Numbered from the stretch's first letter, positions 1,933-49,731 are shown. The stretch is DNA of 64,000 nt from Nemertoderma westbladi (GCA_032718475.1 JAUCBJ010006043.1:1-64000), one strand, 5' to 3'. Notes: generated by a model from the sequence alone, not told the origin. Program-made: numbers and translations.

Positions 1933-2189
1933 CTGTAGTACAGCTTCAATATCAAGTATAGGCCTAATCTGATAATACTGCAGTATTTACTTAGTTAAAG
2001 TCAATGACTGACTGACTGTACTGCAGTACTGGTACTGGCCAGCTGGCTGACTAGCAGACTATTATAGATAGGCCCTACTTTAAAAAATTGTAAATGCTAT
2101 GATTGTACACTGTCAGACTGTACCACTGCAGCCATTTACTTCTGTCATGCCAGCATACTGCTGTACTGTACTGCAGTACTGGTACACGT

Positions 2190-2961: not shown

Positions 2962-3689
2962 GTACACGTACGGTAGGCTACCTACAGTCATGACAGTACA
3001 GACCTCTACCACAGTTAGACAGTTAGCGAGTTAGGTACTGTAGGTAATTTTTAGCCGTCAGTGTCAGGCCGTCGCCGTCAGCATCAGGCCGTCGCCGTCA
3101 GCGTCAGGCCGTCTGTCCGTGCTGCCTTGATAAATTAATTACTTAAATTTTAAATTGAAAATTCGTAAATCTATAAATTATGAAATTAATTAGACCTACA
3201 GTATGATTGATTATGAGCGATTGGCGAATGATAACCATACAGCCATACTTTATTTTTTTTTAAATAAATAATTAAATTTTTAAAATTTTTGAAAAACTCC
3301 GGCTCCTGCTCCGGCTCCGGCCAAATTGTCCAACTCCGGCTCCTGCTCCGGCTCCGGCCAAATCCCAACTCCGATCGAGCCCTAGTACATAGTAGTAGTA
3401 GTACACCTGTACATATACCAATACTGGTGAACCGGTACAATAAATAACAGTTGACAGTCAGTCGGGCACTTTGTCAATATTATGATTTGAAAAGTAAGAA
3501 ATGTTTTTTTGTAAAGAGAATATCTATTTTAATTAAAATATTGTTGAATCCAACCAATCTATATTGTTGTTTGTAATAATTTTAATGATATGTTTTATTG
3601 CATGTCAATATTGACATCTAATATCAATATTGACATGAACGCTGGGTTCTTATGTATATTTCACCCCCACCAAATTTATTTAGAGGCCT

Positions 3690-5615
3690 TCAAGTAACAT
3701 CACAAATACTGAAAAGAGCTGTCAAAACGCTTCAGTTAGACAGTTAGAGGCATTCTTGCTGCATTGTAAATACTGAAAAGAGCTTTTGAAACTATTCAGG
3801 CCTTCGCGCAGCATGTTAAATACTGAAAAAGAGCTACTAAAACCGTTCAGAGTCCTTTGTGCAGCATGATAAATGCCGAAAAGTGCAGTTGAAATTGTTC
3901 AGAGGGTTTCATGTATCATGAGAAAAACTGAAAAGAACTGATAAAACTGCCCACGCCCAGGGGCCTTCACACAGTTTGAAAAATACATAAAAGATCTTTC
4001 AAAGCTGCTCAGAGACCTTTGTGCAGCATGATAAACGCCGAAAAGAGATGTTGAAACTATTCAGAGCTTTGTGCAGCATGATAAATGCTGAAAAGAGCTG
4101 TTGAAACTGTTCAGAGGTCTTCGAGCAGCTTGAGAAGGACTGAAAATAAGTTTTGAAACTTTCAGCCTTCGCACAGAATCTGAAATTCTGAAGAGTTGAT
4201 AAAACTGTTCAGAGTTCTTCATGCAGCATGATAAATGCTGAAAATAACATTTGAAGTTGTTCAGAGTGCTTTGTGCAATATGAGCATGCCGAAAATAGCT
4301 GTTGAAACTGTTGTGAGGCCTTCGTGCAGCATGATAAATGCTGAAAAGAGCTGATAAAACTGTTCAGAGTCCTTCATGCAGCATGATAAATGCTGAAAAT
4401 ATCATTTGAAGTTGTTCAGAGGGCTTTGTGCAATATGACAATGTCGAAAATAGCTGTTGAAACTGTTCAGATGCCTTCGTGAATCATGATAAATGCTGAA
4501 AAGGGCTTTTAAAACTGCTAAAAAGGCCTTCATGCAGGATGAGAAATACTGAAAAGAGCTGATGAAACTGTTCAGAGTCCTTCATGCAGCATGATAAATG
4601 CAGCATGATAAATGATAAATGCTGAAAATAACATTTGAAGTTATTCAGTTCAGAGGGCTTTGTGCAATATGAGAATGCCGAAAATAGCTGTTGAAACTGT
4701 TGCAGAAGCCTTCGTGCAGCATGATAAATGCTGAAAAGGGCTGTTAAAACTGCTAAAAGGCCTTCATGCAGCATGAGAAATATTGAAAAGAGCTGATAAA
4801 ACTGTTCAGAGTCCTTCATGCAGCATGATAAATGCTGAAAATAACATTTGAAGTTGTTCAGAGGGCTTTGTGCAATATGAGAATGCCGAAAATAGCTGTT
4901 GAAACTGTTCAGATGCCTTCATGCAGCATGATAAATGCTGAAAAGGGCTGTTAAAATTGCTAAAAAGGCATTCATGCAGCATGATAAATACTGAAAAGAG
5001 CTGATAAAACTGTTCAGAGTCCTCAAGGCAGCATGATAAATGCTGAAAATAACATTTGAAGTTGTTCAGAGGACTTCGTGCAGTATGAGAATGCCGAAAA
5101 TAGCTGTCGAATCTGTTTAGAGGCTTTCGTGCAGCATGGGAAATGCTGAAAAGAGCTGTTGAAACTGTTAAAAGCCCTCGTGCAGCATGATAAATATCGA
5201 GAAGAGCTCATAAAACTGTTCAGAATCCTTCATGCAGCATGATAAATGCTGAAAAGACCAGTTGACATTGTTCCTGAGGGCTTCGTGCAACATGAGAAAT
5301 GTTGAAAATAGCTGTTAGAACTGTTCAGAGACCTTCATGAGTTCATGCAGCATGATAAATGCTGAAATGAGCTGTTTAAATTGTTCAGAGGCCTTTGTGC
5401 TGTGCAGCTTGATAAATACTGAAATAGCTGCGAAATTATCCAGGCCTTTGCGCAGCATGTGAAATGCTTTGAAACTGTAAAAGGTTTTGAAACTGTTCTG
5501 AAGCCTTTGCGATCGTCGCAATTTTCCAACCATGCAGACACGAATTGTTGAAACAATTCAGAGGCCTTCGTGCAGCATGGGAAATACTGAAAAGGACTGT
5601 TGAAACGGTTGATAA
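3690..5615. repeat. ~52-bp tandem satellite with a ~208-bp (4-mer) higher-order period in the middle
   Basis: Consensus GCAGCATGATAAATGCTGAAAAGAGCTGTTGAAACTGTTCAGAGGCCTTCGT; the variant AATAACATTTGAAGTT recurs at ~4242, 4398, 4627, 4839 and 5048. Confidence 0.9.
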
Positions 5616-6580
5616 GGTAGGCCTATACTATGACAGATACTTAAACTGAATGCCAAATAATATAAATGATCAGACCACCCTGAAAACATACAGTAGCTGT
5701 TAACACTGTAACATGCCAAGCCAATCGCCAATACTGATAAACAACAACTATTATTTATTTATTTATTACTTCTTTAATAGCTGAATAGGGGGGGGGGGGG
5801 GGGGGGACTGGACGCAATACAAATTATTAGTTTCCAGTTACGAATTCGAGCAATCAGTGTCAGTTAACCTTTTATCATCAGCGTACCATATCGTAGTTGG
5901 TTCGGGGAGACAAAGTAGGCCTACCATATGTTAGAGACCCCCCCCCCCCCCCCCCCCACCCCCCGTCTCAAGGCAGCAAGCAGGCAAGGAACCAGAGATG
6001 CTAAATTTATTGTTACCAAATTATTAAAAGCTGTTACACAGTGTTAAGTGGATAAGACTGTAAGTGTAAGATATATTATAAAAACATTAAGCCTACATGT
6101 GATCCAGTAATCAGTCAGTATGTAGCTTTGTCAGGTATAAATTATAGTTCTGTAGTTATAGTACTGTAGTATAGTCTGTAGTGGGTAGTCTATAGGGTGG
6201 CGTGGCCTAACCCCACACTTCTGTTCTCATCATTACATGTCAATTTTGACATGTACGTCTATTTTAACATGAGAAAAACTTTAAGTATTTATATTAACTT
6301 AACGGCACGGTGAAAACAATTTCCGCACGGTCAAAAGTTTCTAATTTACTTATAAATTCGATTTTTATATTTAAAAAACACTTCTGGAAATATTTGAACA
6401 CATCACAGCATCAGGTAAAAAAATGTCAATATTGACATGTCCATGTCAATTTTGACATGCCCCATCCTGGAGAAACTAGCTCTACATGTCAATACTGCGT
6501 GTAATACTGCAGTTGTTAAAAATTCAGTGCCCCTGAAACCGGAAAGAACCGAAATACCGGTACGAGTATTAAACAATACA

Positions 6581-8946: not shown

Positions 8947-10260
8947 TAGGGCAGGGCTCGATCTGTCGATCGGAGTTGGGATTTGGCCGGAGCCGGAGCC
9001 CCGGAGCAGGAGTTGGACAATTTGGCCGGAGCCGGAATGGAGCCGGAGTTTTTCAAAAATGTAAAAAATTTAATTGCCTAGGCCTAATTAAGCAAAAAAA
9101 TAAAGTATGGTTATCGTTCGCCAATCGCATGCTCCTAGGCAGCTAGGTCTAATTAATTTCATAATTTAGGTAGGCCTATAGATTTACGAATTTTCGATTT
9201 AAAATTTAAGTAGGCCTAATTAATTTATCACGGACAGGCGGCCTGACACTGACGGCTAAAAATTACCTACAGTACCTAACTCGTCTAACTGTGATACATA
9301 CAGAAATAGGTGTGTGTACTGTAGGTACCGTACGCGTACCAGCAGTACTGTATTGTATTGTATTGTATTTGCTCTCCATAACATAATTAAACTGCATAAA
9401 ATGGATAATGGACATTTCAAAATATTATACAGTAAATAAACAATATTATAGTTCATAGTTATGTTTTGAATAGGAGGGAGAAGACCGCCAAGGCATATAG
9501 CACTAATAGTTGTCCCAAGTGAAAGTAAAATATTATCATATATTTAAAATATACTCCAAAAATATAAAATAAAAATAAAATAGGGGAACGCACCGATCGC
9601 AGGCATGACATCAGTAAATGGCTGCAGTGGTACAGTGTACATGTACAAGCATTTACAAATTTTTACAGTCAGACAGTAGGGCCTACGCCTACCTACCTGT
9701 AATAGTGTCTGCTAGTCAGCAAGTACCAGTACTGCAGTACGGAGTATGATAACCATTACATTTATGGTGTAGGCCTATGTGTTGACAGGCCTATTACTGC
9801 TGTACAGGTACTGTATTAGGCTATTACATTGCAGCATTGTTAGGCTAGGGCAGTACGGTACTGTATTACCTACTAAACTGAAACATTTTACAGTTCACAT
9901 TGTCATACAGACTTGAAGTGCTGGAGTACCAGGCACAGCTGTTGGCAGTTGGACTAATAGTGTGTGACTCAGAGTCAGCCAGTCAGACAGTCAGTCAGTC
10001 AGTCATTGACTGTAAGTAAATACTGCAGTACCTATTCTGGTATTATGCTTGACTGCTTGATATTGAATCTGTAGTACAGTACTTATAGCTGTATAGTGTA
10101 AATAATTGTCCAGATTAGAATATGTACGAAATATAATACTTTATTAAAAAATTAACTCCTGCAATATTTTTACTGGAGCCGGAGCCGGAGCAGGAGCTGG
10201 AGGTGCCAAAATGGCCTGAGCCGGAGCCGGAGGCCGGAGCTCCGATCGAGCCGAGCCCTA
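8947..10260. mobile_element. Older, diverged copy of the hAT-type MITE (reverse orientation, with internal insertions)
   Basis: Degenerate TIRs (AGGGCTCGATC...CGATCGAGCCGAGCCCTA) and internal homology to 2190-2961; no clear TSD. Confidence 0.75.
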
Positions 10261-10534
10261 GCAGTGCATGTATTGTATAACTGTATAGTGTATAATACTG
10301 ATCCGTATGGAATCCATCCAAAAAGTGCGCCGGATACAGTCTGGGAAATTAGCCCGATAGGGAAACTTATTTATTTCCCTATAGGGAAATTTGTGTTTCC
10401 ATATAGGGAAATCACAGTTTTCCCTATATAGGGAAATTATGCAAATCTTGGTTTTTAATTAATTTTACATGATTTTTATTTATTTTAGACTATACATGTT
10501 CTGTTTTATTAATAATGAATAGGCCTCAATATTA

Positions 10535-11184
10535 AGTAACTGAAATTAGCTAAGCTAGGTTGTTCCTCTGTATAAAAAGAATAGTAAAGTAGAACCCTGT
10601 AATTACAGACCTGTTAGTATCTTAAATATGTATCTATAATTCTAGAACGTTCTGTTTTTCTACAGCTGGAGGAACATCTTAGTAGGCTAAATCTCATCTA
10701 TGAACTTCAGTCCGGCTTTCGTAAATCATATTCTACAGACACCTACCTGCCTTATTAACTTAACTGATACAATTAGATGTAATAACGCAAAGGGTTTATA
10801 TACTGGTATGGTAATGTTGGACCTACAAAAGGCTTTCGATACTGTAGATCACGAAATTCTGCTTGGTAAGTTAGGCCTGATGGGTGTAGGTTCTATAGAC
10901 TGGTTCAAGTCCTACCTGTCAGACAGAGGTCAAACTGTAGTCATTAGCAAATCGCTGTCTACTGTACAAGAGATTACCTGTGGTGTACCGCAAGGTAGTA
11001 TATTAGGTCCTCTGCTTTTTGTATGCTATGTAAATGATATGATAAGTAGTATAGATCCCGATTTTAAACTCATTTTATATGCCGACGACAGTGCTCTTAT
11101 TTTCTCTCATAAAGATCATATCCATATTTCCCAAAAGTTAAGTCCAGTTCTAGAATCCTGTAATGAGTGGTTGGTTGATAATAA
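10535..11184 (+). pseudogene. Second fragment of the same CR1-group LINE RT, cut by the LTR of element A
   Basis: Near-identical to the reverse complement of ~7673-8315; homology stops exactly at TGTTGCC (11185). Confidence 0.9.
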
Positions 11185-12612
11185 TGTTGCCGTTATCCCT
11201 ACACCAGGGGGGAAAAACGCCGATGCTGGAGACGTGACTTTACAGACCACCGAGCCCCGGCCAGTCACCGGATATTGATTGTGGAGAAGGAATGATTTCT
11301 GAGATGCAGGGTTGCGGTTGAGAAAAAGCTGCATTAGTTGGATATACTCTTTAATGTAACTGAACTCTGTTGAACCTTGTTGAACAATATTGAACCCTGT
11401 TGAACCCTGATTGAGAATAATTTTGGGCTTCCCCAAATCAATATACACCAAATATTCACAATAATTATACACGACAATATAAATCCCTACAGTATATTAT
11501 TTAATTACCCACTGTTCGCTCGGATTTTAGCCTAACTAATGTTCCCCAGATTTTCCCTCGGTCCTAGTCTTGATGCCGTAGTGTCGGTGTCGGTCGACCC
11601 TGTCGCGTGTCCGTTCCACCCCTCACGAACCCCGAAGGGAACGATCATCGAGAACCAGCACGGCTTGGCTAAGGGTCGGTCCAGTCGGTAGACTCTGTCG
11701 CGTGTCCGTTCCACCCCTCACGAACCCCGAAGGGTTCGATCATCGAGAACCAGAACGGCTTGGCTAGGGGTCCGTCGGTTCATCGCAGAAACCCAACCAC
11801 CTAGGCTTTCCGAGTCCCTTTCAGGCTCGTAGTCGCTTCGGCAGCCGAGAAACTGCTCCGAACAGTCGGTAGGCCAGTAGAGTCTAGTCCTTTGTCTTTC
11901 GACCCCGTCGCATGTCCGTCCCACCCCTCATGAACCCCGAAGGGAACGATCATCAAGAACCAGTACGACTTGGCTAAGGGGTCTGTCGTCGGTTCCCGTC
12001 GCAGATCCCCGGTACAAGCAGTTAGCGTTCCGAGTTCTTTTCAGTCTCGTAATAACTGCTGTTGACCAGAGACCGCTAAGGGCAGTCCTCGTCAAACCCT
12101 TCCTCTGTAAGTCGGTAGACCCTTTCGCGTGTCCGTCCCACCCCTCACGAACCCCGAAGGGAACGATCATCGAGAACCAGTACGGCTTGGCTAGGGGTCT
12201 GTCGTGTCGTTTCCCGTCGCAAATCCCTGACACAAGCAGTCAGCGTTCCGAGTTCTTTTCAGTCTCGTAATAACTGCTGTTGGCCAGGGACCGCTAAGGG
12301 CAGTCCTTGTCCTTTAGGCCTGGCGCGTTACCAAATCCACCTCTACAGGCAGCAGGAAGTTGGCCAGGGCCTAATAGTAATCAGGCTAACCTGAATACTG
12401 CTTGAATTTTCCATCCCCCCTGGCCCTTATAAACATGAAATTAGTCCCGTACCCTGTAAGTCGCCCCAAAGTTCGCCCATAAATCACCCCCAGTGTATAG
12501 AATGTGCCCAAAACCCATGGTCCCGCACCCAGTAGTAATATCGGAATAATCATTTTAAATAAATACAAAAAATATTCAACTCGCGTTATAAAAAGTTGAA
12601 ATACCGCGAACA
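11185..12612 (-). repeat. 3' LTR of element A (~1428 bp)
   Basis: Minus strand reads TGTTCGCGG...GGCAACA, preceded by the PPT GGGGGGGAC (12613-12621). It abuts the interrupted LINE. There is no second copy in the window to confirm the boundaries. Confidence 0.7.
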
Positions 12613-12786
12613 GTCCCCCCCAATGACCTTCGTGAAGTCCGTTGGTAGATTGAGTTTGCGTAGGTCATTCCCAATATAAAAAACCCAAATTTAATATTGC
12701 ATAGTTTTAATTAATTTGGCCTAGAGTTTATATATATATGTATAAAAATAAATGTTCGATAAATGTTCCTGGAATATCCCGATCCA

Positions 12787-15387
12787 CTATTTCTTTCTCT
12801 GATACGCCTTTCGTCTCTTCGCCCGTCGACTCTCATCGATCGCTATAGCTGGTAGAGGAGCGTCAACATCCATCGTGAGTAACGCTTCGGCTTGTCTCCT
12901 GGCGGCTCTTCCTTTCGATGGCATAGGGATCATGTTGGTTCGTCTTTCCAACTCAGACTTGCGTGCCTCTAGGAACCACTCTCCGTCACCGAACTCCTCT
13001 TTATACGAGTATAATCGTCTAATGACTTCAAATGGACCGAATAATCCGGCGCTCAGTAGCAGATCCACGTAATGGAAAGGTAGCATGGCCGACGTGTGGA
13101 GGCGTTCCGGGAAGGAGAAATACCCGCACGCCATCTCATGCGCGATATTCTGAGCGTTTCTCCGAACCTTGGTCTTTAAGTGGCTGTTTGCGTATGTTTC
13201 AAACATGACCATATTTCCCATAGCGGTTACGTCTTTGGTTGGACATTTGATATAGCAGCGGGGGCTAGAGGAATGTCCACGGAAACCGCACGTGGTGCAG
13301 AGGTTATATAGGATCGGACAGACGGAAACGTCGTGGCCCGATGTCGCGCAGTATGGGCAATAGAGTATCCCGATGAGCTGGAGGCACGAATCGGTAACCC
13401 GATTCCTTCTACCGCGTGGGCACTGCTCCGAACCGCAGTTGCCGCAAACCTCCAATTGCATCTCTCGACCGGGGAATATCGGAATCGGGAGGCCGACGTA
13501 ATATTCGAGTCGTCGGTCGCTCTTCGGAATATTCGCGGTGGCCGGTAGCCCGCGGAATGCTAGGCTTTTGCGTAGTAGGTTCTCGCTCCGATAACCTTCT
13601 TTGTGTCCCGTTGGTCTCAACTCAGACGACCGTTTCTGGCGGTGGATCCATTCAGTTTGCTCGGCGTACCAGCGGGTTAGTCGCATAGGGTCCTGAGGAA
13701 CGGAGGGTGTAGTAGCCACCGCTGGTCGGCGAAGAGGTGCTGGGGTTTTCGACGGAGGGATTCCGAGGAGATCGTCGGGAGTCGGCGCAGCGCTGGGGCC
13801 CTTCTCGACCAATATCGCTGAGCGGGTCCGTTGATTGCTGGTACTCGGAATCTCCGACGACCAGTCTTCGCCACCCGGGAAAGGATACGGGGATAACCTT
13901 TGGCACGTATCGCCGAAGTCGTTTAATGCGAAGGTAGTAACCAACTCCCTCGCAGGGCTACCGAAGCCGAGTGGTGAGGAAACGCCCGCTTCCGTCGTTG
14001 GTTCGGCGGAGGCAACCCGTTTGGCGGCCGGTTGGTAAGCGGCCTCCGGCTCGAGTTGTCGCTTCGGGGTGGAGAGTAGAACACCCTCGTTTAGCCATAT
14101 TTCTTCCCCTTCCGAAGAGATCAGAGGCTCCTCCGCACCGAGAAGTTCGGTAATCGTAGGGATGTCGTAAGGTCCGCTCTCGTCCCAGGAATCGATAACG
14201 GCGAGCGTTTTCGTCTCTCCCGGTGTAATGTTCTCGACCGCTTTGAACGCGTGGTTTATGACCTCGTTCCAGTCGTAGTCGACGAAGGAAAGGGGAACCG
14301 CCGTAATGAGGTTATCGAGAGTCTTACAGATAAACTTAGCGACAGTGTAACACTCCATAACGACGTAGATATAGCGCCGTCGATCGGGATTCTCCCACCT
14401 TTGGTGTATCGTCCACTTCTGATCAACGTCCTTCCATCGACCCTCTCGCTCACTCTTTATTTCTAATCCTGGGTATCCACCATATATTTTATTATAGTCC
14501 CGGAATTTCTGGGGTTTGAAGTCGATGCCGCCGTTTAGCACAGCGAGGTAGCCGATCCTGGATTTCTTCGGTCTCACCTCTTGGAATCCTCGCATGAACT
14601 CGGCGAATCGTAACCAGGCTAGTAGCGTTTGAGTGTCGATGCAATGGCTAAGGGCATTGAGGTCGTCTCGTCGGTTTCTTCCTGAAGGAGCGTTCGCGTA
14701 GTCGTTCCGGACGTTCGCCTTGATATCTGACCCGATTTTAATGACGTCGAAGTCGAAGAGGATCTTCTGGATTTCCGGAGGTAGCAACCAGATTGCTCCG
14801 GCTGCCTGCACTTCCTGTCTGGGTGTCGGAAATATTCGACACACCAATACCAAACCGTCCAGGGTTCCGAGGACGACGACCAAGGATCGACCGTATTCTT
14901 TCGCCCCGTACTTTTCTTGGTAGTCGTCGCGATTCTGGATGGTCGATATACGTTCCTCTCGAAGCGTTGCCGTACACTCCGACAGGTTTCCCCAGTGGGC
15001 GAGGTACGTACTCTTGTCGTCGACGAAACTTTGACATCTCGCCAACGTAATCGCTTTCGAGGTGGGCATTGCGTTTCCCTCATTGTCGTAGATCAAACAT
15101 CGGGATCTGTAGACGCTCTGCCGGAACGTTTCCCAAAACGACGAATCGTCCCCTCCGGTTGCCTTTGCATTCCGAGTTCTTTTCAGTCTCGTACTAGCAT
15201 CAGCTAACCGGAGGGCTCGTAGATTCTTGGAATCCGGTCCCTCTCGCCCGGTGAATTTAACGACTCGCACGTTCTCATTTAGCAGGGTGCTCCAATTTGT
15301 ATCAAAGTCAGGGGATCCAGGTTGCGAATATTCCAGTAGATCTATCGTGTTACGTAATTCGCCGATAATTTGGCGATTTGGATCCAT
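12787..15387 (-). CDS. Accessory ORF (866 aa): DEDDy/WRN-EXD-like 3'-5' exonuclease-fold domain, disordered linker, triple zinc-knuckle module and basic C-terminus
   Basis: ATG-initiated intact ORF. Motifs: IYDNEG (ExoI-like DxE), LLPPEIQKILFDFDVIKIGSDIKAN, CIDTQTL, YVVME (ExoIII-like); CGNC, CPYCx4Hx4C, CTTCGFRGH; C-terminal RRAKRRKAYQRKK. Confidence 0.75.
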   Translation of the reverse strand: MDPNRQIIGELRNTIDLLEYSQPGSPDFDTNWSTLLNENVRVVKFTGREGPDSKNLRALRLADASTRLKRTRNAKATGGDDSSFWETFRQSVYRSRCLIYDNEGNAMPTSKAITLARCQSFVDDKSTYLAHWGNLSECTATLREERISTIQNRDDYQEKYGAKEYGRSLVVVLGTLDGLVLVCRIFPTPRQEVQAAGAIWLLPPEIQKILFDFDVIKIGSDIKANVRNDYANAPSGRNRRDDLNALSHCIDTQTLLAWLRFAEFMRGFQEVRPKKSRIGYLAVLNGGIDFKPQKFRDYNKIYGGYPGLEIKSEREGRWKDVDQKWTIHQRWENPDRRRYIYVVMECYTVAKFICKTLDNLITAVPLSFVDYDWNEVINHAFKAVENITPGETKTLAVIDSWDESGPYDIPTITELLGAEEPLISSEGEEIWLNEGVLLSTPKRQLEPEAAYQPAAKRVASAEPTTEAGVSSPLGFGSPARELVTTFALNDFGDTCQRLSPYPFPGGEDWSSEIPSTSNQRTRSAILVEKGPSAAPTPDDLLGIPPSKTPAPLRRPAVATTPSVPQDPMRLTRWYAEQTEWIHRQKRSSELRPTGHKEGYRSENLLRKSLAFRGLPATANIPKSDRRLEYYVGLPIPIFPGREMQLEVCGNCGSEQCPRGRRNRVTDSCLQLIGILYCPYCATSGHDVSVCPILYNLCTTCGFRGHSSSPRCYIKCPTKDVTAMGNMVMFETYANSHLKTKVRRNAQNIAHEMACGYFSFPERLHTSAMLPFHYVDLLLSAGLFGPFEVIRRLYSYKEEFGDGEWFLEARKSELERRTNMIPMPSKGRAARRQAEALLTMDVDAPLPAIAIDESRRAKRRKAYQRKK

Positions 15388-15934
15388 ATTTACGATTATA
15401 TCCGTTACAAATTAGATCAGTTAATTATAAGTCCAGAAAGTCTGAAACTATAGCGATAGCAGAATAATTCAGTTTTTTATTTAATTCAGTTTATTAAATA
15501 ACATTGCTATATAGACATCTATCATCTTATTGCTAATACATTCAGCATTTACAGTTACTATAGCTATACATTAATATCCAACCAGTTTTTTATGACTTTT
15601 TTGTCCTTTTCTTTTTTCCAATTCTTTTCTTTAGACTTTTTTATACCTTTTTTTGTCTTTTTTCATTTCATTATTATTTCATCTCATTTTATTTATTTCC
15701 ACATATATTTCATCACATTTATTTCCACCATTTATTTCACATTTGTTTATTTCCACATCATCATTGGGGTTATAGCCCCCCGGCTATCATCATTTGTTAT
15801 AAGCGCAACACCAGGGTGCGCATCATTACATTTTCATCATCATACGCGTCACCATTCAGGTTTATAGTAGAGTTGTCTGATCCTTTTCATCATTTCCAAC
15901 TACATTCAATCATCTTCTTTGGTTAATCTTTGTC

Positions 15935-16360
15935 GTGGAAGGGGTGTTACGCGGCAATCTGGGATCTACAGCTGGACTCGTTACACCGCCTACGCCCCAA
16001 ACTGCGCACGTAACGGACAATGAAGACGCTGGGAGTGAAGTCACGTGGAGTGCACCAGGGACCCACCAGAATAACATTCCCAACAACATAAAGCTCAGTC
16101 GACGAAGTCATGTGGGATGGGGTTACGCAACATTCTGGGATCTACAGCTGGACTCGTTACACCGCCTACGCCCCAAAATCCACGCAACGGTCCCACCAGA
16201 ATAACGCGACTGAGAAACATAAAACCCTCTATCGTCGAAGTCATGTGGATGCACCATGGACCCACCAGAATAACGGGATAGAGGGGGTGTTGCGCGGCAA
16301 TCCGGGATCTACAGCTGGACTCGTTACACCGCCTACGCCCCGAACTGCGCACGCAACGGA
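15935..16360. repeat. Three imperfect ~170-bp repeats with an invariant 38-nt core, between pol end and accessory ORF
   Basis: GGGATCTACAGCTGGACTCGTTACACCGCCTACGCCCC ending at 15998, 16174 and 16341. Confidence 0.85.
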
Positions 16361-16635
16361 CAACATAACATACTGCGATGAATATAATGAATTCCACTTC
16401 AAATCTTTACCATTTCCAATAATCCAATATCGTTGGTCCCGATGACCAAAATCAGGGTAAACAATACATAAACGACCCTGCGTCAGTCGAAACATCTGCA
16501 GGGTGACGCTGGACTCCACATAACACACGAGGAAACACAAATACCATTGCATGGTTACAGTTGGTTTAAGGGGGTCCATTTTCATTGTCGATAAATCACA
16601 GTTTTATAAGAGTTTGTCAACATGATGAGAAGGGT

Positions 16636-17754
16636 CTAAACGCATTTGTAATTGTCACCAATGTCCGCAGCAGGATCTTGAGTAGGGAACTTATCACCTC
16701 TCGTAGAGTCACCGCTATCATTGCCTTCGAGAAGGCACAGCCTCTGGATAGGGCGTTGGTAGTGGCCCTTTTTATAATTGTCACCAATGTCCGCAGCAGG
16801 ATCTTGAGTAGGGAACTTGTCACCTCTCGTAGAGTCACCGCTGTCATTGCCTTCAAGAAGGCACAGCCTCTGGATAGGGCGTTGGTAGTGGCCCTTTGCC
16901 GTTCGTATCGTCACAGTCCTCGCAAGTCCGTCTTTGCTTGGGTGTATGGTCACGACCCGCGCCACAGGCCAGTGAACGCGGTCTTTGAGATCTTCTTTTA
17001 CTAGTACCATGTCGCCAACTGCGACGTTCCGGTATGTGTTGTTCCATTTCCTCCTGGTCCGGAGGGTTATGAGATACTCCTGGGCCCAGATTCTCCACCA
17101 ATGCGCTGCCAATGCTTGGGCCTTCTTCCAATTTGTATGTCTCGCGAACTCGCTGGGATCTGGGAACATGGTCTCTGGGAGAACATGAGTTTTGGGTCTC
17201 CCCAGTAGGTGATTAGGAGTAAGGGACTCAACTGAGGCGTTTGCCATCCAGGTATTACGGCAGATTAGTCCGTGCTCTCCCGTTAATGGTGTCAATGTTA
17301 TCAACGTCATTATTATCATCAACAACCTTATTAGCCACCAAAGCATGGGCAAGCGCCAATGTCCGTCTTTGGACGTTGCCTGATCAAAAATGTCGGTACA
17401 ATATTGATCTTCCTCGGACGGATTCTCGTCCTTCTCGGCAAACTCTCGGGTCTCCACATTAAAGCATCCGGTCATCTCCCGCTGGGTTCTCTCAGTCTCA
17501 AGGAAAAAATCATCGTCCAGGTCTGTAGCTGAGCAATAACCCACGGAGGTTACATTTTCTTTAATCTGACATTTAGGAAGGTATGTATAGGTGTCAGTAG
17601 TCTCTTCCTTGATGCCACAGAGGGTCCATCCCATTATTGTTCGTTCAGCGTAAAAGCCGTCATCCTTCTTTATGGATCGGGCGACATCTCCGGTTGGTAT
17701 GTGTAATTCCGGTGTATCAAGTCCGATCAGTAGGGTGATGCGGTTTACGTCCAA
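16636..17754 (-). pseudogene. Deleted BEL pol of A: post-protease region fused to integrase C-terminus (with a 126-bp tandem duplication)
   Basis: TLLIGLD..RTIMGWTLCG..WRLPMLW joined to LTPNHLLG..WWRIWAQEYL..VGDMVLV..WPVARV..DGLARTV..RPIQRLCLLE; no YVDD or catalytic D,D35E core. Confidence 0.85.
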
Positions 17755-17781
17755 CTGCGGACACCTCAGGTCTACATCGTC

Positions 17782-19357
17782 TCAGTCCAATTGTATGAGG
17801 GGGGCGTACTCGGCTGATTGTTGGAACCGCACTCGGAGGTCTGTGTGTACCAAGGCGTTCTTGATGGTTAACTTAACCGTTTCGTAGCCCTTAATCACTC
17901 CTTCCATCTGGAGTTGCACCTCCCCGGACTCTACCTCTCTGTTATCGGTGATGGTTTGTATGGGCCGTTTACAAGGTTCATATTCTAGGCCGAGTTGCTC
18001 GAGGAAATCCCGGTCGATGATGGTTCCGTCGGACCCATTATCAAGGAACGCGAGCGTCGTCAAGGATTTGCCGACTCCTTGAATCCTTACTGGGATTACC
18101 TTTGCGAAGACCATGTAGCGGCGATTTATAAGATTAATCGTGGCCGAAATATTTGTTACTTGTGATGCGTTAGTGGAGGTTTTGAACGGGTTGGTTTCTC
18201 TCCGTTGGGTTGTCCGGGTTCCTTTAGAAACGTGGTTCGTTTCTCCTCTTCGCTTGGCTTCGATCCGAAAGGGGAGGGTAGTGAAGTCGAAGTTCGCGGG
18301 GATGTGGAGGAGCGTGTGATGACGTAGGTCGTTACAAACCGCACAACACGACCTTTGGTGGCAATCCCGAACGTAGTGACCTGTTCCAAGACACCGGAAG
18401 CATCCTCGGTGTTTCGTAATCGCCTCGAAGCGTGGGACGAGTTCAGCAAACTGGAACTTTCCGCAGAATTCTAACTTATGTTTCTCTCCGCAGAAGAGAC
18501 ATATAGGGGAGGCTGTGGTGCCTTCCCTTTCGGGTGCCCAATTCGCTAGGTAGCATGCCCATTCTTCTGCTAAGGTCGGTTCCTCGTAATCCTCGTCATC
18601 CGAGTCCTCAGCCATACTGACGGCCATCGCACTCACAGGAGTAGGGTGGAAACTTGGGTTTGGAGTGGGTGCCCTGCTCTGGTAATTGCTCTCCATTGCG
18701 TCCAACTTGGCGAGACTCTGTTTCGAGAACATCGAGTCATTCATGGCTTCGGAGATATCGTCCAGGAATGCCGACATTTCGAGGAAGCTGGGATCTTGAT
18801 CTGGATGTCTGCGCCGGAGATGTACGCATTTATAGGCCCACTTACTTTGCAGCCATCCGGGGAACTTCCGGGCGATCTGTCGGAGGTTTAGAATGTTGTT
18901 CACCTGGTCCTCCTTATTTAAGGGTTTCAGAGTGTAGTAGGCATCCTTCATGGAATCTGAGAATTCCTGGAGGTTCTGTGGGTCCCCTAGTGATCCCGCG
19001 TCTTGTATCAGTTTCTCTAGAGTTTTATTAATTATAGTCCCGGTATTTCCGTATCTTTTGTCTAGAGTTTTCCATGCGTCATAGTATGCTTCATGAGAAC
19101 CTCCCTCAAAACAAGCGATGATTCGGCGTGGTTTGTCACCCAGGTATTGCGATAAATATACCAGTTTCTGTGCGTCGGCTATGTCCGTTGATCCAATCTG
19201 CACAAAGAACCGTTTCTTGAATCTGAGGTAATCGACGGGATCTCCTTCGAAGGTGCGGATCTCCATCTTAGGCATGGCAAGGTGGTTCTCCAACGCCCGG
19301 ATAATACTGATGTCGTCTGAACTGGAGTGACTCAGAGGGTTATAGTTATTGGCACTC
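17782..19357 (-). CDS. BEL/Pao Gag-protease of A (N-terminus lost)
   Basis: MPKMEIRTFEGDP (DUF1759-type region), three Cys/His knuckles (CLFC..HKLEFC, CFRCLGTGHYVRDC, CAVC..HHTLLH), protease FLDNGS. Confidence 0.85.
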
Positions 19358-20050
19358 ACATTTGTCGTGGTTAAAAAGAAGTTGCCACAATTTGCTCCAG
19401 CGGTCCAGGACATCCAAATCACTTTGTAGTAGGGCAATAGATGTGATGTTCCTGGGGTCGAATATAGCGCTTTGAGGTCATTGGTGAAAAGATGAATGAG
19501 TAGAGTTGGAACATCATTCACATATCCAAGTAATAGGAAAACTCCAGCAACACTTCCCTGAGGAACACCATTGTCAAAATGTAGCCACAGTGATGCTTTC
19601 CCACTGATGACCACGGGTTGGTATCTACAAGATAGAAAGACCTGAAACCAATTTAATAACTTGCCAGTTATTCCAAGGGCCTGCAAATTGACAATCAGTC
19701 TCTGGTGTGGCACTGAATCAAAGGCTTTCTCTAAGTCCAAGTACACATCGATGCACATGCGATCATCTAGTACTTTGAACCAATGGAAGATACAATCAAG
19801 TAGTTGCAGAGGGCATGATCGCCATTTCTGCTTTTCTGGAAACAGTATTGGTCATAGGGTATATATAAGGTTATTTCCCTTCATGTTGCTGTATGTTTCA
19901 TTGACAATATTTCGTTCCATAAGTTTGCAGACCACTAATGTTAGACTGATAGATGTTAAGTTTTCACACAAATATTTACTACCATTCTTAAATTGTGGGG
20001 AAATGTTGGCGAGCTTCCAAACAACTGTCTGGTAGCGGTCCTTCATTCAT
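19358..20050 (-). pseudogene. Decayed CR1-type LINE RT fragment
   Basis: ISLTLVVCKLMERNI; DVYLDLEKAFDSVPH; GVPQGSV; frameshifted. Confidence 0.8.
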
Positions 20051-21252
20051 TGACTTATTAAATAATGAAGCCAGGGGTAAGCCTTTATCTCGTTATTGGC
20101 CCCGATAAAGTTGGTACCTTTATCTGATCGCATGGTGTTGCTAGTCCCAAAGCGAGCGATTTGTCGGCGTAGGCTGAGTATGAAACTATTAGTAGATAAA
20201 TCATTCACCATGTCCAGATGAATCGCTCTTACAAAGTCATAAAGTCTTACGAAGTCTTACAAACAAATATAACGCACCATCGCTTGACTATAGTTCGAGC
20301 GCGGTACACTTCAATAGGGCCAAATAAATCCACACCAGTGTTAGTAAAGGGTGGTTCATAACAGCTTACTCTTTCCCTAGGTAATTCTGCCTCTCGCTGG
20401 GTTAAAGGCCTAATGCTTTCCTACAGGGTATGCAGTTCCTAAGAACTTGGTTTAGTGCTTTACGTGGCTTATAAAAATAATAGCGCATTCTAACTTCGCT
20501 AAGAAGTCGTTCCCTACTTGCATGATAAAGATTACTATGGACATCTACAATCATCTTGATTTGTATTTCAAGATTTTTGATGATGATGGGGTACTTAGTG
20601 TCAAAGGAAAGTGGTACATTAGTTAATCTCCCTCCAACACGTATGAGTCTGTCAAACATCATACTGGACAAAGAATCCTTTAAGTGCATCTGCGGATTTT
20701 TCATCAGCAGGAAATGCTTCTCAGGATCATCATGGCACTGTAGAAGCCTCAGTAGTTGCTTATTGGTATTGTCATGCTCCTGATGCGTGATCTTGTCCGT
20801 TAAAAACTGTGAATTTCTTTAGTCTTGGAATAATGGTGGTGGAAAAGCCGTTTCAAATACGTGATTGCTTTACAATGTCTATTCCAAGCTCTCTTCACTA
20901 GTGGTGAGAGTCCTTTAGAGACATCAGGTATCCCAGTCTTCCAATCTTGGTTCTGAAAATAGGCCACAGTCCCGTTCGGGGTTCGTGGTGTGGCATCATT
21001 GTTGTCATCGGCAGCGTGTAGAATCGATAGATCGAGCATCGGTTTAAACAGCTTGGATTTACTCGTCCGCATCTTTGGCTTAACAGTTTCCGCTCCCTTG
21101 GCTTGTCTGATCTCGGCAGTGGTGAGATGGGGGGGGGGGGGGCATTCCTCTTCTCCTTTACTCAGGAAGTCGGGGCCACCTAGGCAATCTGGTGTCTCAG
21201 TTAGTTCCTTGGGTGTAGCTCCTCTGGAGGCTATGACAGCAGGATTAATAGT
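19358..21252 (-). repeat. Left arm of a ~1.9-kb inverted duplication (partner 29671-31587)
   Basis: Near-identical reverse complement; paired ORFs (e.g. 20402-20704 and 30231-30533) differ at only a few residues. Confidence 0.95.
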
Positions 21253-23305
21253 CCCAGGGCAATGTCTACACGGTTAGTTACAAAGACGCTGGACTGGCAG
21301 ACTTCATTAGTCAAATATTCTAGAACGAGTAATGCATCCATCCAATAAACAGTTTTCTCCAATGGGTAGTCTACCTGTTTGGTGATATTCCTACCAATGG
21401 TGAAAGCGTACAGTGCTGTTTTTAATTCTGCTCTGGGTACCCATAGCTTGTTGATTAGAGCCTTTGAGGCGGCTAAGAAGACCTTAATTCTGTCTGGTGT
21501 TTCGACTCTCAGATAGACTACTATACCTATTCCAATATTGCTGGCGTCTCCAAAGACGTGTAGTTGATAGGAATAGGTGGGGAGAACATGACCAAAATAT
21601 GCGCGAGAAATCTTAAAGTCCTCTATAGATGGTAAAGAGTTTTCCCACTTCATCCATTTCTTCAATAGTTCACCCTTTAGCGGGTCATCCCAAGAATGGT
21701 TTTCAAGCCACATTTGCTGGACTAGATTCTGAGCAACTAGGATTACTGGACTAATGAATCCTAACGGATCGAAATACATGCTAAGAATACTCACGCAGAT
21801 CCTTTTAGTCCGAACAGGGTCCTCTTGTTGTTTTAATTGGAAGAACAAAATATCTCTCTCCGTATCCCACTTTAGTCCGATGGTTTTGGTCTCTGGGAGG
21901 TCGTCTTTAATAAGGTCGAGATCTTTCGCACCTCGTTCTTTCTCTGGGATCGCCTCCAGAAACTCACGGGAGTTGCTGGTGAATTTAGTTAACCGAAATC
22001 CACCGCGCTGAAAACACTCTACCGTTCCCTTGGCAACCTCTACAGCTTCTTCCACCATAGGTAGAGACTTGAGGTTGTCGTCCATGTAGATGTCCTATTT
22101 AATATTATCGATGACCGTTTTGGGGAATGCGTCTCGATTCTCATCTGCAGTAGTATGTACTATTGAGCAGGCATTGGATGGACTAGATATAATGCCGAAG
22201 GCTTGGATAGTCATCCAATACTCCACAGGTTCCTTACCAAAGTCACCATCAGGCCACCATAAGAACTGTAAACTATCTCGGTCTCGTTGTAACGCCTTTA
22301 CTTGAAGAAACATTCCCCTCGATATTGGAGGCAAAGACGATAGAATACTGCCGGAGTCGCAGTAGTATTCCCAACAATGATTGCAGTTGGTTGGGTCCCG
22401 GCAATAACTCAGAGTTGAGGGATTGTCCCTTATATAACGCAGATCCGTCGAACACCACCCGGACTTCATTGGGCTTTCTGGGTTTGGGAACATAGTGGTG
22501 TGTTAGATAGTACGTTCTCTCTGTCACACGTGTGTCGATGGGAACTCGCTCTGCGTATCCCTTGTCGATGAACTTTTTCAACTGGGTCTTATACATTTCT
22601 TTAGCCTTGTCATTCCTTGACAAGCATCGATGTAGCTGTTTGATTCTCTTGATGGCCAACGGTCGATTGTTTATGAAGCTGGGTTCTCTCTTCCGGAAAG
22701 GTAAGCCAATCTCGTATCGACCCTCCTCCTTTAAGTAACGAGTAGTCGTCGCTTGGATCTGTTTAGTTCTTTCTTCCTCTACTGATAGGGCTCTATCATA
22801 CGAGTTGGGTTCCACAGCTTCTTGCATGAAGAATCGAACGGTGAGTTCATCTCTCAATTGAGCCTTGTATCGCTCCACTACCTCATTGAGCTCGTCATCC
22901 TCGTAAGCCAACAGCTCGTTATTAGGCTGTATTAAGTTACAGAGTTCGATTTGATTGAACCAAGTCTGAGTTTCGGTGAGGGGTTTGATAACATTCTCCT
23001 CATCGTATATTGTTTGTATATCATCGTTATCTGATGAGTATGGAGTTTCCTTGGCTGTTAGAGTTTCATCCATCACAGCCTCTACGATGTTGCACACTTG
23101 ATGGACATGTTCATCCTCTCCCCTTTCTCGGGGGGTCCGTCCAGAGGGTCCTGTGATGTACCAACCCACTCTGGTTCTTCCCGCGTATGTTTGTAAAGGT
23201 CGCGGTCGTGCGGGTCGTTTTTCGATGGTCTCGAGCGCTTCATGCGCATTTTGGCCGATGAGCATCTGAACTCCCGTATAATCGGGTTTGAATCTGGGAA
23301 CTTGG
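20090..23305 (-). pseudogene. BEL/Pao pol remnant F (RT-RNaseH-IN, frameshifted), close relative of element E
   Basis: YYLTHHYV..VRVVFDGS..GPNQL, YMDD, FDPLG, LHVFGDAS, VGGRL..KYPII, TGVDLFGP; shares QMLIGQNAHEALET..YAGRTRVGWY..TPYSSDNDDI with ORF 56487-59654. Confidence 0.88.
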
Positions 23306-23824
23306 TGTGACAAATTAGGTTGAGATTTCTTAAACATTCATTAAATTACTCTCAATATCTATAATATGATAACGGTCTTTATTTTAATGGAATCAATTAA
23401 ATTATATGATGAGACATCTGTTATCAATCCTTAGTGCTTAATTAGTTACTGTTAATATTGTATTGGTGAAGGTGTATCCAATAGCACTTATTTTACATTA
23501 TTAGTACAGTATGTCGAATAACTATTAAGCTGTAACTAATGCTAGCTAATTTATTTGTATTGGGTAATTTGATTTAGTTGATACATAGTTCAATTAGTTG
23601 AAATTATTTTTAAGACCCTTTCAATATGTTCAAGAGAACTCAGTGTTTACAGTGTGTGTAATTCATTTCAATTTTCTATTCAGTTTCTGTGTTTAAATGC
23701 TTTATTAAATAATTTTAATGTTGATTCGTAAATAATATTAAATGTCAGAGATTTAATTATAAGAAAACGTATTTTAAATTATTCTTATTTACAATTTCTT
23801 AAGATACAATAATTATTCACTACA
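23306..23824 (+). repeat. 5' LTR of BEL element B (~519 bp, AT-rich)
   Basis: TGT...ACA, interrupts pol remnant F, followed 6 nt later by a PBS-like TGG motif; single copy. Confidence 0.65.
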
Positions 23825-23830
23825 TAAAAA

Positions 23831-23848
23831 TGGTGCCTGGACCCGGAT
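23831..23848 (+). promoter_or_regulatory. Primer-binding site of element B
   Basis: TGGTGCCTGGACCCGGAT resembles the complement of a tRNA 3' end (His-like TGGTGCCGTGACTCGGAT). Confidence 0.65.
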
Positions 23849-24027
23849 CTAATCAACCGCTATATTTTTTTTATATTCTTTAATCCAGGCCTAGGCCCAT
23901 AAAATATTTAGTTATGGCAAAGAAAAAAGACAAAACGGGTACCGGTACGTAAAATAAACAAAATACAGTTTTATGTAATAGCACAGCAGAACAAAAGAAT
24001 ATATCTTCGCTTAAGTACAATATTTAA

Positions 24028-26874: not shown

Positions 26875-26970
26875 AATTATTTAGTGATTAATTACAAAAC
26901 CTATATATATATAAAATTTATATAAAAAATATAATTGATACAAAAATGAAAAATATATATTAAACCCCTC

Positions 26971-28563: not shown

Positions 28564-28594
28564 GTATTCAGTCAGTCAGTAGTACAGTTCTATA

Positions 28595-31587: not shown

Positions 31588-31862
31588 AAGGTAATGCTCG
31601 ACCACTCACTAACAGACTAAAGTCCACAGATTTACAAAAATACTTGGGAGTCCTGTAGAGAACATGACATTGGTGATTGGTTTGTCAACACATTAATTCA
31701 ACACATTACCCTTTCTGTCTTTGAGACTATTATCATGTAATCTTTAGTCAATCAATGTGCAATGCAATGCAATGTGCAATGCAAAGTGTGTGCAAGGGAA
31801 TTGCCATAAAGGGTGAAGGAATATTGTAAGGGGATGGTGATGTTTTAGATGGAAATAAACAA

Positions 31863-48405: not shown

Positions 48406-48783
48406 GAGAGATAGAGATAGAGGTAGTAGGGTATATAAAAGATATAGATATTAGTTAGCAGTTAGTAGCGAGAGGGGGGCATATGAGTACAGCTGGGTAA
48501 ATCGTGTGGCCACGCGACGCATACTGCTGTACTGCACAGGCCCACAGAGTAGGCCAGAATGTGGATTAGGAGATAGAATAATCCATAGGCAGTAGCAAGT
48601 AATAGGAAACAGTAAGGTAGTAGGATTAAAATCAGATCAAAACAAATAGGATAGATAGGGCTAAGAAGGGGAACAAATTATGGTAACAGTAATAAGAAAA
48701 TATAGGCTATTTAACTCAGAAATTCAGAAAGAGATAGGCCATCGAACTGAACTTAAACCACCTAAACCCATCACTCATCACGT

Positions 48784-49731
48784 TTGCGCCTTGGCAAGGC
48801 ACCACCTACTGGTGAGCGATCGGGCAGAGTTCGAGATGGCAGGCAAACTAGATGGGAGAGGAGAGAAGCAGAAGAGAGGGAGGAGGAAGCTAGGGCGCAG
48901 AGCTACGGCTTTGAGGAACAAACGACCTTAGACGAACTTCGTTGGGCTTCGTCAGGGAGTTCGGGGGAGTCTCTAGGGAAAGAACTGGGGTGGACGGTGG
49001 GATCACTGAGACAGTCGACGTCGGGATTGCAAGCGATGCCCATACCAGCGGGCGCCGAGGGCGATCAACCGCAAAGGAAGCTAGGGGAGCTTGAGGAATG
49101 GAGAGTTACGGGCAAGAACCAAGGTGGGAAGGGACATAGTGGGTCCACCGAGATACCGGGGTTGGGACCACTGCGAGAGGAGGACGAGGACGACGACGAG
49201 TTCGGAGAGATGCCGCCCATCGAGAGGATAGGCCACTCGGACACGGACTGGGTTGGCGGGAGGGTGGTGACGGCCAGTGGGGCGAGAGCCTTCTGGGACA
49301 AACCCGGCAAGCGGGCCTGGGTGCACGAGGGGCCGGCGATGGATTTCGCCGGGAGCACTATCAGGTTGGGCAAGCAACCGGGGACGGCACCACGGGTAGT
49401 ATTCGGAGAGACGATGCCCGGGAGGGGCGAGGAGATCGACGTAGACAGGGACGCTAACGTCCAGAAGTTCGCCTATCAGCGACTCCACAGACCGCGGAGA
49501 TCGCTTGGGATGAAAGACGACGTGGGGCGGGAGACATTGGTACTCGGTTGCGACTACTGTGGGAGACAGACCCACCAGGAAAGGAGCTGTTTGTACCGGT
49601 TCCAGAAAGGGACCAGCTGTCTCTACTGCCACGAGACGAGCCACAGGATGGGAGCGTGTCCACGGTTGCAGAACCGATGTCCGAAGTGCAACTTTCGGGG
49701 ACACCACGGACGCCAAGGAGGGATGGACTGA
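48784..49731 (+). CDS. Accessory ORF of C (~315 aa) with triple zinc-knuckle module homologous to A's accessory protein
   Basis: GRETLVLGCDYCG..H..SCL..CLYCx4Hx4CPRLQNRCPKCNFRGH; true start uncertain (no early in-frame ATG). Confidence 0.7.
   Translation: MRLGKAPPTGERSGRVRDGRQTRWERREAEEREEEARAQSYGFEEQTTLDELRWASSGSSGESLGKELGWTVGSLRQSTSGLQAMPIPAGAEGDQPQRKLGELEEWRVTGKNQGGKGHSGSTEIPGLGPLREEDEDDDEFGEMPPIERIGHSDTDWVGGRVVTASGARAFWDKPGKRAWVHEGPAMDFAGSTIRLGKQPGTAPRVVFGETMPGRGEEIDVDRDANVQKFAYQRLHRPRRSLGMKDDVGRETLVLGCDYCGRQTHQERSCLYRFQKGTSCLYCHETSHRMGACPRLQNRCPKCNFRGHHGRQGGMD

What the first reader, a model, noticed from the sequence alone, without database searches (positions are those of the whole stretch)
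12787..15387. BEL/Pao retrotransposon carrying an intact 3'-5' exonuclease-fold plus zinc-knuckle accessory gene in the env position
Seen: an 866-aa ATG-initiated ORF between the integrase end and the PPT, intact although RT and IN of the same copy are deleted, with no signal peptide or transmembrane segment evident. Residues ~95-350 (~15105-14340) show CLIYDNEG, a beta-strand VVVLGTLDGLVLVCRI, LPPEIQKILFDFDVIKIGSDIKAN, CIDTQTL, SRIGYLA and YVVME. Known: this order matches the DNA_pol_A_exo1/DEDDy family (WRN-exo, EXD1/2, Mut-7/Nibbler, Egalitarian), several of which act in piRNA/siRNA trimming or RNA transport; the extra BEL ORFs I know of are env-like. The ExoII Asp appears as Asn and the ExoIII Asp as Glu, so it may be a pseudo-nuclease RNA binder. 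Inference: a captured small-RNA-pathway-like nuclease acting as an anti-silencing, RNA-transport or RT-proofreading factor.
Basis: partly seen in the sequence, partly recalled or inferred. Interest (0 to 1): 0.9.

Follow-up and report, generated by a model that had tools for sequence, protein, structure and literature searches.

The report
BEL/Pao retrotransposon carrying RNA-trimming exonuclease gene
A many-copy jumping gene of the BEL/Pao group carries, where an envelope gene would sit, an intact and conserved extra gene whose protein likely joins an RNA-trimming exonuclease fold to three RNA-gripping zinc knuckles, a kind of cargo I found described only in rotifer elements of other groups, and which may help the element blunt host small-RNA silencing.

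Summary
The 866-aa ORF is real and lies between the integrase tail and the PPT/3' LTR of a 5'-truncated BEL/Pao copy that lacks RT, RNase H and the integrase core. Other copies differ mostly at silent sites (12 of 18 listed differences, 5.5 expected). The only database relative, P0001 (648 aa, context unknown), has the same layout: exonuclease-like domain, linker, three knuckles. P0001 scores clearly as DnaQ-like/DEDDy, and ESM Atlas links ORF3 to PF01612. ORF3 alone hits no Pfam family, and both folds failed. ExoIII is Glu in both proteins, and the ExoI placement is likely but unproven. DEDDy ORF3s are published for rotifer Juno/Vesta elements (PMC5408684). I found none for BEL/Pao. The closest architecture is trypanosome RNase D. 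Verdict: new variant of a known kind, function untested.

The parts
12787..15387 (-). ORF3, 866 aa, intact accessory gene in the env position
   Evidence: 12 of 18 listed differences to other copies are synonymous
14308..15135 (-). DnaQ-like/DEDDy-derived exonuclease-like domain, about residues 85-360
   Evidence: ESM Atlas PF01612 set, 24 of 30 hits at 0.92; 28% over 138 aa to P0001, which scores 17.8 bits on a bacterial DEDDy profile, 0 of 1000 shuffles as high
15079..15087 (-). likely ExoI acids D101 and E103, followed by an insertion of about 57 residues
   Evidence: best ungapped placement of the P0001 ExoI segment (score 16, next 3), but 445 of 5000 shuffles reach it: likely, not shown
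14713..14736 (-). ExoII motif, residues 218-225; Asn225 in this copy, Asp in nearly all other contigs and in P0001
   Evidence: bacterial ExoII profile places here, 74 of 5000 shuffles as high
14353..14367 (-). ExoIII-like YxxxE (Y341, E345); Glu where canonical DEDDy has Asp
   Evidence: aligned with Y229/E233 of P0001; 192 of 5000 shuffles as high
13588..14100 (-). Pro/Ser/Thr-rich linker, about residues 430-600, probably disordered
   Evidence: composition; no significant match to P0001
13255..13446 (-). three tandem Cys/His knuckles, residues 648-711 (first one irregular), followed by a tail conserved in P0001
   Evidence: the P0001 counterpart matches HIV nucleocapsid (E 1e-4) and Air2 (E 0.064) in the PDB; Atlas CCHC-type hits at 0.88 or less
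15388..15930 (-). AT-rich leader (29% GC) with candidate splice acceptor TTTCAG at 15447-15442
   Evidence: splicing not shown
15935..16363 (-). three 83-nt direct repeats between pol end and ORF3 leader
   Evidence: family D17
16636..17781 (-). post-protease remnant joined across a deletion of RT, RNase H and integrase core to the integrase C-terminus (DUF5641 at about 17133-16855; 127-nt tandem duplication at the end)
17782..19354 (-). BEL/Pao gag (DUF1759, knuckles) and aspartic protease, 5'-truncated by a LINE fragment
12614..12621 (-). polypurine tract
11185..12612 (-). 3' LTR (TGTT...AACA, about 1.43 kb, with internal 99-nt repeats), abutting a LINE RT fragment
   Evidence: no 5' partner in the window
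48766..49731 (+). related knuckle-bearing frame in the same slot of a second, complete BEL/Pao element (31863-50949); no exonuclease domain detected
   Evidence: 36% over 67 aa, pairwise E 5e-8

Best explanation
ORF3 is an intact, selectively kept accessory gene of a many-copy BEL/Pao family, and its protein is likely a 3'-5' RNA exonuclease that grips single-stranded RNA with three zinc knuckles and would trim host small RNAs, blunting silencing of the element. Steps. Shown: position in the env slot, open frame, excess of silent change, two-domain layout shared with a 28%-identical relative. Strongly inferred (about 0.85): DnaQ-like/DEDDy fold. Inferred (about 0.55): the family's acids D101, E103, D225 and E345 bind two metals and cut; this particular copy has Asn at 225 and may be impaired. 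Inferred by analogy to trypanosome RNase D: the knuckles hold RNA a few bases upstream of the 3' end. Inferred: expression from its own spliced message, and action in trans. Least certain: that the substrate is piRNA/siRNA rather than the element's own RNA.
For: Open frame and synteny. 12 of 18 listed differences synonymous against 5.46 expected, P = 0.0013, crude omega 0.22; none of the 9 listed indels inside the element falls in ORF3 (P about 0.03). P0001 keeps both modules (E 1e-14 and 4e-11 pairwise; top bit scores 62.8 and 50.4 against at most 26.2 for 1000 shuffled copies). P0001 on bacterial DEDDy profiles: 17.8 bits, 0 of 1000 shuffles; ExoI 1 of 5000, ExoII 0 of 5000; its only two Pfam hits at E up to 10 are zf-CCHC (0.046) and PF01612 (0.2). 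Atlas: 24 of 30 hits in the PF01612 set. Asp at ExoII in X1 23368 of 23376 depth (26 contigs), X3 29627 of 29636 (19 contigs), X4 2 contigs, X5 1 contig. Exo plus C-terminal CCHC fingers is the layout of TbRND, whose fingers bind RNA at positions R5-R9 from the 3' end (PMC7797062, passages). ORF3 is a separate frame, intact in a copy that has lost RT and integrase, which fits a trans-acting product better than an RT subdomain.
Against: ORF3 itself hits no Pfam, NCBIfam or PDB exonuclease and scores -2.4 bits on the bacterial profile, with 347 of 1000 shuffles as high. hhalign gave probability 2.8% and 28%. ExoI placement is not significant (445 of 5000), and MAFFT instead aligns ExoI to residues 146-152, which have no acids. 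ExoIII is Glu, not Asp, in both proteins, and the bacterial ExoIII profile is not significant for either (3306 and 1315 of 5000). The Atlas PF01612 row shares 160 features, under the 170 typical of true family hits, and the family covers only 50% of that cluster. The 18 differences are the best-supported 40 of 1768 places, not a random sample. Nothing here bears directly on the substrate. The second element keeps the knuckles without an exonuclease domain, so the nuclease is dispensable in at least one relative.
Confidence: 0.35

Rival explanations
1. ORF3 is a pseudo-nuclease RNA adaptor: the exonuclease fold and knuckles bind the element's RNA for transport, packaging or shielding, without cutting, as with catalytically inactive EXD1 and Maelstrom.
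For: ExoIII Glu in both proteins; ExoI placement uncertain, with an acid-free alternative strand at residues 146-152; a 57-residue insertion next to the active site; knuckles resemble nucleocapsid and persist alone in the second element. Inactive EXD1 and Maelstrom are noted in PMC5408684.
Against: The ExoII Asp is kept in the family. Acids sit at all four positions in two proteins that are only 27-28% identical, which is not expected if catalysis was lost long ago.
Confidence: 0.3
2. ORF3 is an active nuclease that serves the element's own replication: it trims the 3' end or tail of the genomic RNA or primer, polishes cDNA ends, or proofreads RT inside the particle.
For: Nucleocapsid-like knuckles could bring it into particles. 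PMC5408684 proposes 3'-end processing of element RNA for rotifer ORF3s, and PMC3706591 proposes end processing for the DEDDy domain of Dada transposons.
Against: It is a separate frame, not fused to pol. It stays intact in a copy without RT or integrase. Most BEL/Pao elements replicate without such a gene (PMC3118150 passages mention only env as an extra gene).
Confidence: 0.22
3. The domain is not an exonuclease fold, or ORF3 is a neutral passenger or an unrelated neighbour gene that is open only because the family is young.
For: No direct family or structure hit for ORF3. The genomic context of P0001 is unknown. No listed contig spans ORF3 together with both integrase and LTR (listing cut).
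Against: Silent-site excess; copies up to about 18% divergent still align over the domain (X4 record 17: 122 differences and 3 gap letters over 674 bases); collinear motifs with Pol I and RNase D through P0001; the same slot and knuckles in a second, LTR-bounded BEL element.
Confidence: 0.13

Closest known systems
DEDDy ORF3 of bdelloid rotifer LTR elements Juno and Vesta, shared with Athena/Terminons (PMC5408684; text parts 1-3 of 5 and figure legends read)
   Same: Separate third ORF downstream of pol, no TM or coiled-coil env features, RNase D-like DEDDy domain, function untested.
   Different: Host element is BEL/Pao rather than Juno/Vesta (Ty3/gypsy-like, from recall); motif reads D-E-D-E here against DEED there; the read text reports no knuckle array in those ORF3s; relationship by descent not tested.
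Trypanosoma brucei RNase D, TbRND (PDB 7c42/7c45; PMC7797062, passages)
   Same: DEDD exonuclease domain followed by tandem C-terminal CCHC fingers, no HRDC.
   Different: Cellular enzyme with canonical D80/E82/D145/D230, four fingers and a linker of about 28 residues; ORF3 has three knuckles, about 290 residues between the domains and Glu at ExoIII. Orthology not tested.
DEDDy domain inside Dada transposases (PMC3706591, passages)
   Same: A mobile element that carries a DnaQ-like exonuclease.
   Different: DNA transposon, domain inserted in the transposase, canonical DEDD.
env-bearing BEL/Pao elements: roo, mosquito chuvirus-like gB elements (PMC13524379, passages)
   Same: Same genomic slot after the integrase.
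   Different: ORF3 has no recognised fusion-protein family and has nucleic-acid-binding modules instead.
P0001 (unnamed ENA protein, 648 aa, one contig of 9449 nt)
   Same: Same domain order, D-E-D-E acids, three knuckles, conserved tail, basic C-terminus.
   Different: No insertion after ExoI; 27% identity overall; whether it lies in an LTR element is unknown.

Membership tests
BEL/Pao LTR retrotransposon | BEL-type gag (DUF1759), protease and integrase C-terminus (DUF5641) in order | tested here: met
   DUF1759 E 1.6e-14, Asp_protease_2 E 2.9e-5, DUF5641 E 2.9e-31
BEL/Pao LTR retrotransposon | RT/RNase H phylogeny inside BEL/Pao | not testable with these tools
   RT and RNase H are deleted in this copy; no genome is held
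BEL/Pao LTR retrotransposon | paired TG...CA LTRs, PPT and target-site duplication | tested here: inconclusive
   PPT and one TG...CA unit present; 5' LTR absent from the window
canonical DEDDy exonuclease (PF01612) | ExoI DxE at the end of the first core strand | tested here: inconclusive
   clear in P0001 (1 of 5000 shuffles); D101/E103 best but not significant in ORF3 (445 of 5000)
canonical DEDDy exonuclease (PF01612) | ExoII Asp | tested here: met
   Asp in nearly all other contigs and in P0001; Asn in this copy only
canonical DEDDy exonuclease (PF01612) | ExoIII YxxxD | tested here: not met
   YxxxE in ORF3 and P0001; filed as DEDDy-derived, not canonical
canonical DEDDy exonuclease (PF01612) | score over the Pfam cut-off (23.6 bits) | tested here: not met
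   ORF3 no hit; P0001 11.9 bits
canonical DEDDy exonuclease (PF01612) | RNase H-like fold | tested here: inconclusive
   AlphaFold models at pLDDT 33 and 38; fold searches uninformative
canonical DEDDy exonuclease (PF01612) | two-metal 3'-5' exonuclease activity | not testable with these tools
   needs a bench assay
rotifer Juno/Vesta/Athena DEDDy ORF3 group | separate ORF3 between pol and 3' LTR | tested here: met
rotifer Juno/Vesta/Athena DEDDy ORF3 group | DEED motif | tested here: not met
   D-E-D-E here against DEED as worded in PMC5408684; the figure itself was not seen
rotifer Juno/Vesta/Athena DEDDy ORF3 group | clade membership in a DEDDy tree | not tested
   no rotifer sequences were returned by any search
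TbRND-type RNase D | exonuclease domain plus C-terminal tandem CCHC fingers | tested here: met
   architecture only
TbRND-type RNase D | sequence orthology | tested here: inconclusive
   TbRND was not among PDB hits of ORF3, P0001 or their profile
env fusion glycoprotein | known fusogen family, signal peptide and C-terminal membrane anchor | tested here: not met
   no Pfam hit; the six most hydrophobic windows all start at residues 165-171

The most novel reading that the evidence does not exclude
BEL/Pao elements carry their own family of counter-silencing RNases: a D-E-D-E exonuclease fused to Air2/nucleocapsid-like knuckles, in effect an exonuclease and its RNA-targeting cofactor in one chain, which chews piRNA or siRNA 3' ends in trans and is kept even by copies that have lost RT and integrase.
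Probability: 0.2. Interest if true: 0.85.

Novelty: new variant of a known kind. Interest (0 to 1): 0.5.

Why it matters
What the exonuclease ORF3s of LTR elements do has been open since 2017: the rotifer paper found no catalytic proof and no departure from neutrality in the ORF3s it sampled (env and GDSL types). This case extends the cargo to BEL/Pao, shows purifying selection on it, and adds a knuckle array that points to RNA as substrate. It gives two natural proteins for a direct nuclease assay. An animal retrotransposon enzyme that attacks host small RNAs would be a clear counter-defence mechanism. If the protein only binds RNA, it is a modest extension of a known theme.

Tried and rejected
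Homolog searches: the search for homologous proteins found nothing for the whole ORF (7994 candidates, 476-1516 aa) or the domain (596 candidates, 149-476 aa), and only P0001 itself for P0001 residues 40-260 (907 candidates). The search for related loci found no relative in metagenome contigs, viral contigs or genome contigs. So linkage to BEL pol and LTR in other species and a tree against EXD/Mut-7/WRN could not be done. No genome is held. Structure: AlphaFold failed on ORF3 1-399 alone (pLDDT 33) and on the two-row alignment A2 (pLDDT 38); Foldseek had no match at E 0.001 or better and VIA-align only helical matches at Z 5.3 or less; these say nothing either way. I did not pad the fold alignment with RNase D rows, because that would be circular. 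Expression: no RNA holder listed. One contig of run X5 (RNA is only a guess; organism B) covers 15158-15545 without a gap across the candidate acceptor, which neither shows nor excludes splicing; a strict polypyrimidine pattern did not pick that acceptor. Depth dips near 17150 (about 1,700-3,000 against 10,000-30,000 in ORF3), hinting that many copies lack pol, but the tool says contig depth cannot rank parts, so it is not used. A finer per-site view of the domain across copies was not obtained, so variation at D101, E103 and E345 is known only as 'not among the 40 listed places'. The decayed pol block at 20078-23337 lies upstream of gag and resembles the element at 56487-59705, so it was rejected as this copy's pol. 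A search for data on Glu at ExoIII (D501E) found 0 papers. Literature searches for a BEL/Pao exonuclease ORF showed none in their listings; PMC3118150 has 0 occurrences of 'exonuclease' in its main text. Repbase reports, subscription journals and supplements were not seen and may hold such elements.

Full report
Observation. The frame 12787-15387 on the minus strand is open for 866 codons from an ATG, far beyond chance (longest run 271 in 200 shuffles), and holds every motif quoted. Reading down the minus strand: a LINE RT fragment ending near 19355, BEL gag (DUF1759) with knuckles and protease, a deletion that removes RT, RNase H and the integrase core, the integrase C-terminus (DUF5641), three 83-nt repeats, an AT-rich leader, ORF3, a purine tract at 12614-12621 and a 1.43-kb unit with TGTT...AACA ends. 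The window has no 5' LTR for this copy. The animal host and the BEL assignment rest on these domains; no genome is held.

Many copies, under selection. Of 7 runs listed, 4 of organism A hold 21-49% of the ORF's words, from 3 studies, and one of organism B holds 7%. Laying four runs placed 15,466, 6,725, 289 and 50 contigs on 10500-24500, with identities spread from above 99% to below 90%. That is a repeat family, though depth gives no copy number. Of the 40 places listed (of 1768), 18 fall in ORF3: 12 silent and 6 replacing, where 5.46 silent are expected from the same change types (P = 0.0013, crude omega 0.22). Of 12 indels listed (of 150), 9 lie in the element and none in ORF3 (P about 0.03). 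These are best-supported rows, not a random sample. The Asn is a trait of this copy.

What the protein is. ORF3 has no Pfam, NCBIfam or PDB hit of use. ESM Atlas features for residues 80-400 gave 6 of 30 hits to unnamed, mostly fungal clusters (0.93-0.94) and 24 of 30 to the PF01612 set (0.92; 160 shared features; 50% of members). phmmer over 1.84 billion representatives returned one protein, P0001 (E 7.5e-5), a singleton from a 9449-nt ENA contig. It matches ORF3 in two collinear blocks, residues 168-303 and 645-783; the second block was not in the query that found it, so it is independent support for homology. P0001 is the bridge. On a profile of 13 bacterial RNase D and Pol I exonuclease domains it scores 17.8 bits with 0 of 1000 shuffles as high, while ORF3 scores -2.4 (347 of 1000). 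Motif profiles place ExoI at P0001 D62/E64 (1 of 5000 shuffles) and ExoII at D130 (0 of 5000); ExoIII falls best on Y229/E233 but not significantly (1315 of 5000). In ORF3, ExoII maps to 218-225 (74 of 5000) and ExoIII to Y341/E345 (192 of 5000, through P0001). ExoI maps best to D101/E103 (445 of 5000), which needs an insertion of about 57 residues; MAFFT prefers an acid-free strand at 146-152. The acids therefore read D-E-D-E, with the first two likely but unproven. Both AlphaFold jobs failed for lack of depth, and the fold searches are uninformative. The C-terminal module has three Cys/His knuckles. In P0001 they match HIV nucleocapsid and, weakly, Air2, and Atlas gives CCHC-type leads below 0.9. 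Both proteins end in a basic stretch, possibly a nuclear signal (inference).

A second witness in the window. A complete BEL element at 31863-50949 (LTRs 98.5% alike, duplication AACAA) has in the same slot a frame at 48766-49731 with the homologous knuckles and no detectable exonuclease part. A third element at 63093-51970 keeps gag-protease, lacks pol and has a frameshifted, unrelated frame in that slot. Non-env third frames thus recur among BEL families of this genome, and the knuckle module is tied to that slot in two of them.

Mechanism. The nearest solved layout is TbRND, a DEDD exonuclease whose C-terminal CCHC fingers hold RNA upstream of the 3' end being trimmed (PMC7797062, passages). 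I take ORF3 to work the same way (inferred). It is a separate frame behind an AT-rich leader, and third ORFs are typically made from spliced messages (PMC5408684); splicing is not shown here. It stays intact where RT and integrase are gone, which suits a trans-acting factor better than RT proofreading. I commit to trimming of host silencing RNAs (0.35), against a non-cutting RNA adaptor (0.30), processing of the element's own RNA or cDNA (0.22) and no exonuclease or no function (0.13). No result here identifies the substrate.

Comparison and novelty. DEDDy ORF3s are published for rotifer Juno and Vesta and for Athena/Terminons (PMC5408684: parts 1-3 of 5 and legends read; cited again in passages of PMC6431247, PMC5718144 and PMC6338049), and a DEDDy domain occurs in Dada transposases (PMC3706591, passages). 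For BEL/Pao the passages I read name only env-type extras (PMC13524379; PMC3118150), and seven searches listed no BEL exonuclease; Repbase, closed journals and supplements were not seen. Unchecked notes of this scan report Rrp6-like exonuclease-HRDC-CCHC third genes in LTR elements of other invertebrates, which suggests a wider theme but is no support. ORF3 works like a DEDDy/TbRND protein but fails canonical membership (Glu at ExoIII, below the Pfam cut-off) and differs from the rotifer DEED motif. Verdict: a real, selected accessory gene and a new variant of a known kind; interest 0.5.

Noticed in passing
window 31863-50949 (+): Complete BEL/Pao element, 529-nt LTRs 98.5% alike, duplication AACAA. 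The 9 bases after its 5' LTR (32392-32400) are complementary to its own LTR at position 359 and do not start with TGG, like the self-priming signature in earlier notes. Nine bases is short and was not tested against chance.
   Followed up: partly
window 37526-44155 (+): Nested BEL element with identical 263-nt LTRs, duplication ATCCC, non-canonical ends (TATAG...CTAAA) and a TGG-starting primer site.
   Followed up: partly
window 51970-63093 (-): Third BEL element, LTRs 97.9% alike, gag-protease at 59705-56487, pol absent but for its last residues, AT-rich linker, then a frameshifted frame 54518-53303 with Cys/His residues and no useful Pfam or NCBIfam hit. Same gag-protease plus third-frame pattern as the focal copy.
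   Followed up: partly
window 19355-21252 and 29671-31590: 1.9-kb inverted duplication (97.5%) of a LINE fragment joined to decayed BEL integrase sequence, flanking a full LINE at about 24028-28575.
   Followed up: no
window 11589-12311: Four 99-nt repeats inside the LTR, each with a short palindrome around a TTCG loop; possible RNA hairpins.
   Followed up: no
window 32661-35865 (+): Long low-complexity frames (754 and 335 aa, no Pfam hit) ahead of the gag of the second element.
   Followed up: no
window 3654-5621, 47960-48400, 51058-51577: Tandem repeat arrays with units of about 52, 32 and 22 nt.
   Followed up: no
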